Of a DNA stretch of 45,337 nt, positions 8,230 to 8,914 are shown one piece after another. How positions within the stretch are numbered: position 1 is the stretch's first letter; each line of letters opens with the position of its first letter. The stretch is from IMG/VR virus record IMGVR_UViG_2718217885_000006, one strand, 5' to 3'. A program made the translations under genes and the position numbers. The notes under the pieces were generated by a model that ran no database searches, had not been told where the DNA came from, and saw only the letters and a list, made by a program, of their open reading frames with translations. The DNA comes from a virus. Lineage: Duplodnaviria > Heunggongvirae > Uroviricota > Caudoviricetes.

Positions 8230-8622
8230 ATGGGAAGAAAAGCAAGGCATCTTGCAAATAAAGAAATCATTAAAGTATTGGCTGAACGCTATCCAGAAAG
8301 CTTCTTTGTTATTCCATACAAAGTGGTTCCGCTTGTTCACGATATCGTTCATGAGCTCTTTGCCGATCTCGGACATATACCTAAGGAATACAAAAACAGC
8401 CTTCGAAGAGCCATCTATCAGTACAAAAGCTCAGATTCATACCTTCAGTCAGTCGCGTTTGGAGAATATCGCCGCAATCTGGCGGGAAATCGTATTGTCA
8501 GAACATCCGTATCTGAACGCGAAGAAGCCAGAGCACAACTCAAAGAACGTGGTATCTGGACTCGTCGTATGGAGCTCTTGTTCAAAGTTAATATGGGTAG
8601 AAAAGAAGCGTCTAATCGCTGA
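8230..8622 (+). CDS. FinO/ProQ-domain RNA-binding protein
   Basis: 130 aa; aligns by eye with the N-terminal FinO-like domain of ProQ (KEIIKVLAERYPESFF ... LRRAIYQYKSSDSYLQSVAFGEYRRNLAGNRIV ... EEARAQLKE); GGAGA SD; AT-rich. Confidence 0.7.
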   Translation: MGRKARHLANKEIIKVLAERYPESFFVIPYKVVPLVHDIVHELFADLGHIPKEYKNSLRRAIYQYKSSDSYLQSVAFGEYRRNLAGNRIVRTSVSEREEARAQLKERGIWTRRMELLFKVNMGRKEASNR

Positions 8623-8725
8623 ATTTTATCAAAACATTGATTCCTTAATTTCGGAACGTTACACTGTTCAGGCACCTTATAAAACGGGTGCCGGGATTGG
8701 CGTCCTGAAATTCAATATAGAGCAT

Positions 8726-8747
8726 AACCGCGCTCATGCGGTTTTTT
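8726..8747 (+). terminator. intrinsic terminator-like hairpin downstream of FinO-domain gene
   Basis: Stem AACCGC/GCGGTT with 6-nt loop followed by TTTTTT. Confidence 0.5.
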
Positions 8748-8914
8748 CGTGTCATGAGCATTGCTACGCCCAAATTATGGTGGGGCGTGCAGGGGCATCG
8801 CAAGATGCGCCGGGTTCTATGTTGACCGGTTACGCCAACCCTGTACGTCTCACCACCTCTGTGATTGGCGTCCCATGTGGTGAGTTCTTTGAATTCAACA
8901 TAGGGGCTGTCACC

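What the first reader, a model, noticed from the sequence alone, without database searches (positions are those of the whole stretch)
8230..8750. Prophage-encoded FinO/ProQ-domain RNA-binding protein with terminator-bounded 3' region
The 130-aa protein aligns by eye with the FinO-like N-terminal domain of ProQ. FinO-domain proteins bind structured RNAs near intrinsic terminators; this gene is AT-rich, sits between two Rha-type regulator genes, and is followed by ~100 nt of non-coding sequence with a stem-loop (8671-8692) and an intrinsic terminator (8726-8747), a plausible cognate RNA partner or 3'UTR-derived sRNA. A phage-borne RNA chaperone could reprogram host or phage sRNA regulation.
Basis: partly seen in the sequence, partly recalled or inferred. 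Interest (0 to 1): 0.7.

Follow-up and report, generated by a model that had tools for sequence, protein, structure and literature searches.

The report
Phage FinO-like protein beside IsrK/C4 RNAs
A rare prophage gene encodes a small FinO/ProQ-type RNA-binding protein placed directly upstream of a known antisense-RNA switch (IsrK plus C4) that controls a phage antirepressor, and the same arrangement recurs in very distant relatives, which suggests a dedicated RNA chaperone for a lysis-lysogeny switch.

Summary
ORF 8230-8622 (+) encodes a 130-aa protein that passes the Pfam ProQ/FinO threshold (50.7 bits against 27). Its confident AlphaFold model matches only FinO-domain structures in the PDB.

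The "non-coding 3' region" is not an anonymous UTR. Positions 8773-8860 are a C4-type antisense RNA (80.1 bits). A Rha antirepressor gene follows at 8915.

IsrK appears to have its own promoter, so it is probably not 3'UTR-derived. The IsrK-C4-Rha module occurs in 1417 of 5426 complete E. coli genomes. The FinO gene accompanies it in only 14, so it is rare cargo inserted just upstream of the IsrK promoter.

The main new result concerns distant relatives. In 11 of 13 lineages of this minimal FinO subfamily (down to about 30% identity), the gene is followed on the same strand by a terminator-bearing leader RNA. In 10 of those 11 a C4 or sRNA-Xcc1 RNA follows; one contig ends first. An antirepressor gene comes next where the sequence extends far enough.

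My best explanation is a dedicated chaperone of the C4/IsrK switch. This rests on synteny and homology, not on any binding or expression data. I found no prior report of the link.

The parts
8230..8622 (+). Gene for a 130-aa minimal FinO/ProQ-domain protein ('FinO-mini'), low in GC.
   Evidence: - Pfam PF04352, 50.7 bits.
- Sequence match to the ProQ N-terminal domain structure 5nb9, E=1.7e-5.
- AlphaFold2 model with pLDDT 90.9. The top 26 Foldseek PDB hits are all FinO-domain proteins.
- RefSeq WP_038813125.1 is annotated 'ProQ/FINO family protein'.
8637..8665 (+). Putative sigma-70 promoter of the IsrK-like RNA: TTGATT, 17-nt spacer, TACACT. The predicted transcription start is about 8672.
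   Evidence: - Read directly from the sequence. It scores only 8 of 12, so the consensus scan did not call it.
- Homology to prophages that lack the FinO gene starts at 8631-8636.
- Promoter-like sites scoring 10 of 12 occupy the equivalent position in L029 and L010.
8672..8748 (+). IsrK-family sRNA, the leader that carries the a1/b1 target sites. It has hairpin 1 (8672-8691), hairpin 2 with the loop UUGGCGU (8697-8703), and an intrinsic terminator (8726-8747).
   Evidence: - Rfam RF01394, 62.8 bits (gathering score 50), covering model positions 1-77.
- A weaker overlapping hit to c4-a1b1, 21.7 bits.
- The minimum-free-energy fold gives three hairpins, z = -2.1.
8773..8860 (+). C4-type antisense RNA. 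Its segment ACGCCAA (8832-8838) is complementary to the leader loop and to a site downstream.
   Evidence: - Rfam RF01695, 80.1 bits (gathering score 45).
- Complementarity test.
8777..8914 (+). 46-codon leader ORF, the counterpart of Gifsy-1 orf45 / 'Ash' / Icd-like ORFs. It overlaps the C4 RNA. Here it is in frame with Rha and has no stop codon before it.
   Evidence: - Pfam Phage_ASH, 31.8 bits against a cutoff of 26.
- ORF table.
- The role of orf45 is described in PMC4825925.
8865..8871 (+). Second copy of the target sequence UUGGCGU (b2-like site), between the C4 RNA and the Rha ribosome-binding site.
   Evidence: and the sequence itself.
8915..9478 (+). Rha-family antirepressor/regulator gene, the output of the switch.
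   Evidence: - Pfam PF09669, 95 bits.
- PHROG 821, E=2e-102.
- TIGR02681, 90.3 bits.
7993..8166 (+). DUF4222 gene. In prophages without the FinO gene it directly abuts the IsrK promoter, so it marks the left edge of the FinO insertion (about 8167-8630).
   Evidence: - Pfam PF13973, 56.7 bits.
- Alignment with E. coli 99_0849.

Best explanation
**What it is.** The gene encodes a minimal FinO-domain RNA chaperone. It is an optional accessory of a C4-type (P1 immI-like / Gifsy-1 IsrK-like) antisense-RNA switch that gates translation of a phage antirepressor.

**Shown here.**
- The protein has the FinO fold.
- It keeps the Tyr/Arg pocket (Y71, R81) that in RocC binds the 3'-terminal nucleotide of a terminator. 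It also keeps the basic residues (K55, R59) that contact the hairpin.
- Immediately downstream lie an IsrK-family leader sRNA ending in an intrinsic terminator with a U-tail, a C4-type RNA, matching target sites on both sides of the C4 RNA, and a Rha antirepressor gene.
- The order 'FinO-mini gene, then terminator-bearing leader RNA' is kept in 11 of 13 lineages of the subfamily, although protein identity falls to about 30%. A C4 or Xcc1 RNA follows the leader in 10 of the 11; one contig ends before it. An antirepressor-type gene follows in at least 8 of them.
- The order is kept even though the pairing sequences differ in every locus. The antirepressor family also varies (Rha, Bro-N, AntA, ORF6N, P22_AR_N, Derepression), as does the host element (lambdoid, P2-like, tail-region island).

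**Inferred.**
- The protein binds the leader sRNA terminator, the stem plus 3' tail of the processed C4 RNA, or both.
- It protects the RNA from 3' decay and speeds the loop-loop pairing between the C4 RNA and its a1b1/a2b2 targets. This is what FinO does for FinP/traJ and FopA does for Inc/repZ.
- It thereby sets the threshold at which the antirepressor is translated.
- In prophages that lack the gene, host ProQ, which is reported to associate with IsrK, probably fills this role.
- In the window the gene sits in the early-right operon, so it is probably made on infection or induction. The direction of the effect on Rha (tighter repression or faster release) cannot be decided from sequence.
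For: **Protein.**
- Pfam hit above threshold; sequence matches to ProQ, Lpp1663 and RocC structures.
- AlphaFold2 pLDDT 90.9. Foldseek probability 1.00 for FinO-domain structures only, with nothing else below E=1.
- RocC contact residues are taken from PMC9674577 and mapped through the alignment.

**RNAs in the window.**
- isrK 62.8 bits and C4 80.1 bits.
- The minimum-free-energy fold of the 254-nt read-through RNA pairs the IsrK middle hairpin with the C4 region (z = -4.3), as in 'structure A' of PMC4825925.

**Synteny.** C4, sRNA-Xcc1 or IsrK hits lie 60-550 nt downstream, on the same strand, in the loci listed below.
- L026: a1b1 + IsrK + C4, then a Derepression-family gene.
- L029: Xcc1, then ORF6N.
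- L034: IsrK-like + C4.
- L035: C4, then Bro-N.
- L037: Xcc1, then AntA.
- L038: C4, then Rha.
- L032: C4.
- L010-13: Xcc1, then Bro-N.
- L015/16: two Xcc1 copies, then AntA.
- L014: Xcc1, then P22_AR_N.
- L041: IsrK/a1b1, then the contig ends.

In about 195 kb of scanned window and locus sequence, no C4 or Xcc1 hit lay further from a FinO-mini gene or a FinO-less IsrK-C4 module than a second tandem copy of the module.

**Target complementarity.** In 10 of 11 loci a 7-9-nt segment at positions 43-65 of the C4-like RNA is complementary to both the leader and a downstream site. In L034 the contig ends at the C4 RNA, so only the leader could be tested. The sequence is different in each locus.

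**Literature.** IsrK is listed as a ProQ-associated sRNA (PMC5391140). Dedicated FinO-domain proteins on mobile elements assist antisense RNAs (review PMC9977716).
Against: - There are no binding, expression or phenotype data for this protein.
- Only 14 of about 1417 E. coli genomes with the IsrK module carry the gene, so the switch works without it.
- The IsrK sequence is almost identical with and without the gene, so the RNA shows no sign of adapting to the protein.
- Two relatives lack any detectable C4-type RNA: Xenorhabdus L005 at 44% identity and L042.
- The N-cap Ser and the turn Gly, both highly conserved in the family, are replaced here by Y54 and D38.
- The C4 RNA has no terminator, so it would be an atypical ligand.
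- Lineages were chosen by whether contigs were available, not at random. One positive (L041) shows only the leader, and three IsrK-like calls are below Rfam gathering scores.
- The association could be with antirepressor genes in general rather than with the RNAs.
Confidence: 0.6

Rival explanations
1. The protein is a generic 'moron' RNA chaperone. It acts broadly on host or phage terminator-bearing RNAs, like the minimal ProQ of Neisseria, or it competes with host ProQ. On this view it has no special link to the adjacent RNAs, and the adjacency only reflects a permissive insertion site next to antirepressor modules.
For: - The gene has low GC and is rare (14 of 5426 genomes), and it is inserted at a mosaic boundary.
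- Minimal FinO domains can be global binders (abstract of PMC7272453, listed).
- The IsrK module works without the gene, and the RNA is unchanged when the gene is present.
- Two relatives lack a C4 RNA.
Against: - The same gene-then-RNA order and strand recur in 11 of 13 lineages. These have about 30% protein identity, unrelated flanking genes and different phage types.
- In these loci the leader promoter or leader RNA starts within about 20-80 nt of the stop codon.
- An insertion hot spot would not explain this conservation across Salmonella, E. coli, Acinetobacter and metagenomic elements.
Confidence: 0.22
2. The small RNA is a 3'UTR-derived product of the FinO-gene mRNA, ending at the 8747 terminator, and serves as the protein's cognate RNA.
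For: - There is no terminator between the stop codon (8622) and 8726. Transcripts of the FinO gene should therefore end at, or read through, the IsrK terminator and carry IsrK as their 3' end.
- FinO-domain proteins bind 3' terminators of mRNAs as well as of sRNAs (PMC9977716).
Against: - A promoter-like -35/-10 pair sits at 8637-8665, and the Rfam model starts at 8672, where the predicted transcript would begin.
- Gifsy-1 IsrK is a primary transcript from its own promoter (PMC4825925).
- About 1400 E. coli genomes keep the promoter and the RNA but have no FinO gene upstream.
Confidence: 0.1
3. The protein acts on transcription read-through rather than on RNA pairing or stability. By binding the nascent leader terminator hairpin, it changes how much early-right transcription passes the IsrK terminator into the Rha and replication genes. 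The terminator would then play a tR1-like role.
For: - The IsrK terminator lies in the path from the early-right genes to the O-like, DnaC-like and DnaB-like replication genes.
- In P4 the related CI RNA controls premature termination (cited in PMC4825925).
Against: - I know of no FinO-domain protein that acts co-transcriptionally on termination.
- The conserved pocket recognises a free 3'-OH end, which exists only on a released transcript (PMC9674577).
Confidence: 0.06

Closest known systems
FinO with FinP/traJ (F-like plasmids), and FopA with Inc/repZ (IncI plasmids)
   Same: - Each is a FinO-domain protein encoded on a mobile element, next to or with a structured antisense RNA system.
- That RNA system gates translation of a key regulator through loop-loop pairing.
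- The same fold and the same conserved Tyr/Arg 3'-end pocket are present.
   Different: - The element here is a phage, not a plasmid.
- The RNAs belong to the C4/IsrK family. They are encoded on the same strand as their targets and act by complementarity to sites flanking them, so they are not true cis-antisense transcripts.
- The output is an antirepressor, not a conjugation or replication factor.
- The protein is only 130 aa. It lacks FinO's long N-terminal helix and scores far below the NCBIfam FinO model (19.7 bits against a cutoff of 136).
Chromosomal ProQ (E. coli / Salmonella)
   Same: - It is the best sequence match among solved structures (5nb9, E=1.7e-5).
- ProQ is reported to associate with IsrK in Salmonella (PMC5391140).
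   Different: - The window protein has no linker and no Tudor-like C-terminal domain.
- It scores 41 bits against the ProQ equivalog cutoff of 127.
- It is encoded by a prophage and is rare.
- It has a subfamily-specific C-terminal helix (residues 112-128) after a nearly invariant Trp110.
Minimal FinO-domain proteins: Lpp1663 and RocC (N-terminal domain) of Legionella, and NMB1681 of Neisseria
   Same: They are of similar size or are domain-only proteins, and they are the best structural matches (target-normalised TM-score 0.67-0.80).
   Different: - They are chromosomal, and either global binders or regulators of competence.
- Neither is known to be linked to C4-type RNAs or antirepressors.
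Gifsy-1 isrK-orf45-anrP locus, and the P1/P7 immI region (c4-icd-ant)
   Same: - The RNA part of the window matches both Rfam families. It has the same order: leader with a1b1 sites and a terminator, the C4-like RNA overlapping a short ORF, a second target site, then the antirepressor gene.
- The predicted alternative pairing of the IsrK middle hairpin with the C4 region is reproduced.
   Different: - As far as I know, neither Gifsy-1 nor P1 has a FinO-domain gene upstream. In Gifsy-1 the upstream gene is antQ.
- In the window the leader ORF is fused in frame to Rha instead of ending just before the antirepressor gene.

Membership tests
ProQ/FinO domain family (Pfam PF04352) | Match to the family HMM above the curated gathering score | tested here: met
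   50.7 bits against 27, E=2e-13, residues 10-107 matching profile positions 4-99 of 109. 17 of the 19 aligned subfamily members also match.
ProQ/FinO domain family (Pfam PF04352) | FinO-domain fold | tested here: met
   The AlphaFold2 model has pLDDT 90.9 and pTM 0.82. Foldseek against the PDB returns RocC, Lpp1663, FinO and NMB1681 as the only significant hits, with probability 1.00 and target-normalised TM-score up to 0.80. The next hit has E=1.9. This is a predicted structure, not a solved one.
ProQ/FinO domain family (Pfam PF04352) | Conserved 3'-end-binding pocket (RocC Tyr87/Arg97, equivalent to ProQ Tyr70/Arg80), and basic residues at the start of the hairpin-binding helix (RocC Lys71/Arg75) | tested here: met
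   In the alignment, Y71, R81, K55 and R59 occupy these positions. Y71 is invariant across the subfamily. Residue roles are taken from PMC9674577.
ProQ/FinO domain family (Pfam PF04352) | N-cap Ser (RocC Ser70) and beta-turn Gly (RocC Gly52), described as highly or nearly completely conserved | tested here: not met
   The aligned residues are Tyr54 and Asp38. In the subfamily the turn position is Gly in only 7 of 19 sequences. These residues are conserved in the family but do not define it, so this marks a divergent subfamily rather than exclusion from the family.
ProQ/FinO domain family (Pfam PF04352) | Binding to structured RNA with a terminator hairpin and a 3' tail | not testable with these tools
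   This needs EMSA, RIP-seq or CLIP.
ProQ proper / FinO proper (NCBIfam NF003434, NF010317) | Score above the equivalog or subfamily cutoff | tested here: not met
   41.2 bits against 127 for ProQ, and 19.7 bits against 136 for FinO. The protein is neither ProQ nor FinO itself.
IsrK sRNA (Rfam RF01394) | Covariance-model score above gathering, covering the full length and including the terminator | tested here: met
   62.8 bits against 50, model positions 1-77 of 77, window 8672-8748.
IsrK sRNA (Rfam RF01394) | Locus layout as in Gifsy-1: own promoter, short downstream ORF, then an antirepressor gene | tested here: met
   - The promoter is inferred from the sequence and from the homology boundary.
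- The 46-codon Ash-family ORF is at 8777-8914.
- Rha starts at 8915.
- No transcription data are available, so promoter activity itself is untested.
C4 antisense RNA / P1 immI-type switch (Rfam RF01695, RF03163) | Covariance-model score above gathering | tested here: met
   C4 scores 80.1 bits against 45 at 8773-8860. The a1b1 model scores only 21.7 bits against 46.7 in the window, but reaches 46.7 and 47 bits in L026 and L009.
C4 antisense RNA / P1 immI-type switch (Rfam RF01695, RF03163) | A segment of the RNA is complementary to sites both upstream (a1b1) and downstream (a2b2) of it | tested here: met
   ACGCCAA (8832-8838) pairs with TTGGCGT at 8697-8703 and at 8865-8871. The same three-site pattern, with a different sequence each time, is seen in the 9 other loci where both sides could be tested; L034 ends at the C4 RNA. 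Individual shuffle frequencies range from 0 to 0.1.
C4 antisense RNA / P1 immI-type switch (Rfam RF01695, RF03163) | Processing of the C4 RNA out of a longer transcript, and repression of ant translation | not testable with these tools
   This needs Northern blots, 5'/3' end mapping and reporter fusions.
Dedicated FinO-type chaperone / antisense-RNA pair (as in FinO-FinP, FopA-Inc, RocC-RocR) | Conserved genetic linkage of the protein gene with its RNA system | tested here: met
   11 of 13 subfamily lineages have IsrK-like, C4 or Xcc1 RNAs directly downstream on the same strand.
Dedicated FinO-type chaperone / antisense-RNA pair (as in FinO-FinP, FopA-Inc, RocC-RocR) | The protein stabilises the RNA or accelerates its pairing with the target | not testable with these tools

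The most novel reading that the evidence does not exclude
A distinct subfamily of minimal FinO-domain proteins (about 125-130 aa) is the protein component of C4/IsrK/sRNA-Xcc1-type antisense-RNA immunity modules in phages and satellites. Through this module, a phage-encoded RNA chaperone directly tunes antirepressor translation, and so the lysis-lysogeny decision and cross-talk between co-resident prophages. This would be the first phage counterpart of FinO-FinP. It would also suggest that host ProQ plays the same role for the far more numerous modules that lack the gene.
Probability: 0.45. Interest if true: 0.75.

Novelty: new variant of a known kind. Interest (0 to 1): 0.62.

Why it matters
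FinO-domain proteins on plasmids are classic partners of antisense RNAs. Phage-encoded ones are known to exist, but none has an assigned RNA system.

C4/IsrK-type RNAs control antirepressors in P1, P7, Gifsy-1 and hundreds of lambdoid prophages, including Stx phages. The module is present in about a quarter of complete E. coli genomes. No dedicated protein cofactor is known for them.

The conserved adjacency found here gives a concrete, cheap experiment: one protein, two small RNAs and one reporter. It could show how RNA chaperones enter the prophage induction decision. It could also explain why host ProQ associates with prophage sRNAs such as IsrK.

There is a practical annotation point too. 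Gene callers routinely translate straight through these RNA genes. PGAP, for example, starts the Rha CDS at 8615 with an ATC codon.

Tried and rejected
**Searches that found little or nothing.**
- The word-indexed protein search with the single protein found only its own 99% cluster. With the 19-sequence alignment it found 8 proteins. The exhaustive HMMER scan was needed to find the family.
- tblastn of the window protein and of P0050 against 50,697 GenBank phage records gave no match.
- The metagenome-contig scan with alignment A2 found nothing. Alignment A1 was too diverse to build search patterns. The viral-contig scans mostly recovered near-identical copies.
- Eight literature searches turned up no paper connecting FinO/ProQ proteins with C4, Xcc1 or antirepressor modules. 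One paper lists 'BRO, Icd, ProQ' together in an Enterobacter PICI but does not comment on it.

**Ideas tested and set aside.**
- Own promoter for the FinO gene. The consensus scan found none upstream of 8230, and my reading of 8167-8229 found only weak candidates. I therefore infer co-transcription with the early-right operon.
- A functional overlapping ORF. The Rha frame is open from 7901 to 9478, and the +1 frame across the FinO gene has no stop codon. Only 0.6% of codon-order shuffles match this. However, the alternative frame has 6-12 stops in 7 of the 12 FinO-mini genes examined, so I treat it as chance plus annotation artefact.
- A 3'UTR origin for the sRNA. Rejected as the main route, for the reasons given under the rival explanations.
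Full report
**1. The observation**

The window carries an ORF at 8230-8622 (+) of 130 codons, with an ATG start and a GGAG 8 nt upstream. Its GC content is 0.427, against 0.49-0.53 for the flanking genes and 0.506 for the window.

Upstream lie a Rha/Roi-like gene (7266-7973; PF09669, 34.4 bits) and a DUF4222 gene (7993-8166). Downstream lies a Rha gene (8915-9478; PF09669, 95 bits).

The stem-loop at 8671-8692 and the terminator at 8726-8747 are both present.

**2. The protein**

- **Family match.** Pfam PF04352 (ProQ/FINO) matches residues 10-107 at 50.7 bits, against a gathering score of 27.
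- **Solved relatives.** A sequence search of PDB chains finds the E. coli ProQ N-terminal domain (5nb9, E=1.7e-5), Legionella Lpp1663 and RocC.
- **Predicted fold.** An AlphaFold2 model built on nine sequences is confident (pLDDT 90.9, pTM 0.82). Foldseek against the PDB returns only FinO-domain proteins (RocC, Lpp1663, FinO, NMB1681) at probability 1.00. The next hit has E=1.9.
- **RNA-contact residues.** I used the RocC-RocR contacts described in PMC9674577 and the alignment.
  - The 3'-end pocket Tyr87/Arg97 corresponds to Y71/R81.
  - The hairpin-contacting Lys71/Arg75 corresponds to K55/R59.
  - The N-cap Ser70 and the turn Gly52 are replaced by Y54 and D38.
- **Not ProQ or FinO themselves.** The protein scores far below the NCBIfam cutoffs for ProQ and FinO proper.
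- **Already annotated.** RefSeq calls it 'ProQ/FINO family protein' (WP_038813125.1).
- **A small, rare subfamily.** An exhaustive HMMER scan of 1.84 billion cluster representatives finds only 47 relatives at E<1e-3. The closest are stand-alone proteins of 113-142 aa. They share an invariant Tyr71 and a nearly invariant Trp110 ahead of an extra C-terminal helix.

**3. The 'non-coding 3' region'**

An Rfam scan at gathering thresholds gives two hits directly downstream.
- 8672-8748 is a full-length match to isrK (62.8 bits, gathering score 50).
- 8773-8860 is a full-length match to the C4 antisense RNA (80.1 bits, gathering score 45).

In Gifsy-1, IsrK is a primary transcript from its own promoter. 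It either stops at its terminator or reads through into orf45 and anrP, and a processed RNA (STnc1160) lies over orf45. The short form acts in trans on the long form to allow translation of the antirepressor (PMC4825925).

The window has the same parts:
- a 46-codon Ash-family ORF over the C4 RNA (8777-8914);
- a Rha antirepressor gene;
- a C4 segment (ACGCCAA, 8832-8838) complementary to the loop of IsrK hairpin 2 (8697-8703) and to a second site at 8865-8871.

The minimum-free-energy fold of the read-through RNA pairs the IsrK middle hairpin with the C4 region, like the published inactive structure.

**4. Is the sRNA a 3'UTR product?**

Probably not, at least not mainly.
- A -35/-10 pair (TTGATT 8637-8642, 17 nt, TACACT 8660-8665) predicts a start at about 8672, where the Rfam model begins.
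- The IsrK-C4-Rha module is found in 1417 of 5426 complete E. coli genomes and in 276 phage records.
- Homology with those copies begins at 8631-8636, which is at the -35.
- Only 14 genomes carry the FinO gene as well.
- In an E. coli prophage without it, DUF4222 abuts the promoter directly.

The FinO gene is therefore a rare insertion of roughly 465 nt (about 8167-8630), low in GC.

There is no terminator between its stop codon and 8726. Its own mRNA should therefore end at, or read through, the IsrK terminator. The scans called no promoter for the gene. From gene order I infer that it is transcribed with the early-right operon.

**5. Relatives elsewhere**

I fetched the genomic surroundings of as many subfamily lineages as the tools allowed and scanned them with Rfam. 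Percentages are protein identity to the window protein.

| Lineage | Identity | Host or element | RNAs downstream of the FinO-mini gene | Next gene |
|---|---|---|---|---|
| P0002 (L026) | 52% | Salmonella, P2-like prophage | a1b1 + IsrK + C4 | Derepression-family |
| P0006 (L029) | 36% | Salmonella, lambdoid | Xcc1 | ORF6N |
| P0005 (L034) | 40% | metagenomic | IsrK-like + C4 | contig ends |
| P0009 (L035) | 35% | metagenomic | C4 | Bro-N |
| P0011 (L037) | 33% | metagenomic | Xcc1 | AntA |
| P0016 (L038) | 33% | metagenomic | C4 | Rha |
| P0010 (L032) | 34% | Acinetobacter, P2-like | C4, 546 nt downstream | short Ash-like ORF (sub-threshold) |
| P0050 / P0049 (L010-16) | 32% | Salmonella; tail-region island | Xcc1 | Bro-N or AntA |
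| P0019 (L014) | 34% | metagenomic | Xcc1 | P22_AR_N |
| P0012 (L041) | 36% | metagenomic | IsrK/a1b1 | contig ends |

- **Positives and negatives.** Together with the window this makes 11 positive lineages. The negatives are a Xenorhabdus homologue next to a HigBA-like pair (44%, L005) and a 142-aa relative (L042). More distant proteins (L022-25) also lack the RNAs.
- **Background.** In about 195 kb of scanned window and locus sequence, no C4 or Xcc1 hit lay further from a FinO-mini gene or a FinO-less IsrK-C4 module than a second tandem copy of the module.
- **Terminator upstream of the RNA.** In 10 of the 11 loci a terminator hairpin with a U-run precedes the first C4-like RNA. In L015 it precedes only the second copy.
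- **Leader promoter.** In at least two loci a strong promoter-like site lies just after the FinO stop codon.
- **Pairing sequences.** The 7-9-nt pairing segment differs in every locus but is matched at both target sites.

The order 'FinO-mini, then terminator-bearing leader' is thus conserved in 11 of 13 lineages. A C4/Xcc1 RNA follows in 10 of the 11 and an antirepressor-type gene in at least 8. The protein, the pairing sequence, the antirepressor family and the surrounding element have all diverged.

**6. Mechanism**

*Shown:*
- the FinO fold with an intact 3'-end pocket;
- a bona fide IsrK/C4 switch next door;
- conserved linkage between the two.

*From the literature:*
- FinO-domain proteins bind terminator hairpins with 3' tails (PMC9674577).
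- Those on mobile elements stabilise an antisense RNA and promote its pairing (PMC9977716).
- IsrK is listed among the sRNAs associated with Salmonella ProQ (PMC5391140).

*Inferred:*
- The phage protein binds the leader terminator, the stem plus 3' tail of C4, or both.
- It stabilises the RNA and speeds C4-target pairing, and so tunes antirepressor translation.
- Host ProQ probably does this for the 99% of modules that lack the gene.

The direction of the effect on Rha cannot be read from sequence. I put 0.6 on this explanation.

**7. Novelty**

- Phage-encoded FinO-domain proteins are known to exist (PMC9977716, PMC7491321).
- IsrK and C4 are known RNA families.
- This very protein is already annotated.
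- I found no report of the link between a minimal FinO subfamily and C4/IsrK/Xcc1 antirepressor modules.
- One paper lists 'BRO, Icd, ProQ' together in an Enterobacter PICI without comment.

I rate it a new variant of a known kind, with interest 0.62.

**Caveats**

- No experimental data exist for this protein.
- Lineages were sampled by contig availability, not at random.
- Some IsrK-like calls are below Rfam gathering scores.
- Treating sRNA-Xcc1 as equivalent to C4 rests on shared architecture and position, not on a formal test.

Noticed in passing
window 7901-9478 (+), frame of the Rha gene: The Rha reading frame stays open for 526 codons upstream of its stop codon, across DUF4222, the FinO gene (in its +1 frame), IsrK and C4. 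For the FinO gene alone, only 0.6% of codon-order shuffles leave that frame open. PGAP starts its Rha CDS at 8615 with an ATC codon and so translates through both RNA genes. PHROG and Pfam 'Ash' families seem to be built from such read-through ORFs. The open frame is not conserved in most homologues.
   Followed up: partly
window 8777-8914 and 8915-9478: The Ash/orf45-like leader ORF is in frame with Rha, with no stop codon between them. Translation from 8777 would therefore give an N-terminally extended Rha protein. In Gifsy-1, by contrast, orf45 and anrP are separate, translationally coupled ORFs.
   Followed up: no
window 18634-18809 (+): Full-length Rfam match to the sRNA STnc100 (93.7 bits, gathering score 47). 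A weaker copy lies in L007 at 231-433 (-).
   Followed up: no
L009 3443-4000: A 98%-identical copy of the FinO gene is followed by two tandem IsrK-C4 modules (IsrK 3443-3519 with C4 3544-3631, then IsrK 3818-3893 with C4 3910-4000). L015/L016 and L029 likewise carry two Xcc1 copies.
   Followed up: no
L010-L016, L029, L037 (sRNA-Xcc1 hits): sRNA-Xcc1 (RF02221) occupies the same position as C4: after a terminator-bearing leader and before an antirepressor gene. It has the same architecture, namely a long closing stem around two hairpins with a 3' CACC tail and complementary sites on both sides. Rfam nevertheless lists it outside the C4 clan CL00128.
   Followed up: partly
L029 8134-8208 (+): Strong isrJ match (101.7 bits) just downstream of a Q-antiterminator gene in a Salmonella lambdoid prophage that also carries a FinO-mini gene.
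   Followed up: no
window 6482-7300: Two long ORFs overlap almost completely on opposite strands (6482-7228 on +, 248 aa; 6494-7300 on -, 268 aa). RefSeq annotates only a + strand hypothetical protein, and neither ORF was characterised here.
   Followed up: no
L005 2055-3372 (Xenorhabdus lircayensis): The closest homologue outside Escherichia and Salmonella (44% identity) sits next to a HigB/HigA-like pair, with no detectable C4, IsrK or Xcc1 RNA. This is an exception to the synteny rule.
   Followed up: partly
L010-L016 3388-3936; L037 434-964: In the tail-region islands, an uncharacterised ORF of 176-182 aa with no Pfam hit directly precedes the FinO-mini gene on the same strand. I did not test whether these ORFs are homologous to each other.
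   Followed up: no
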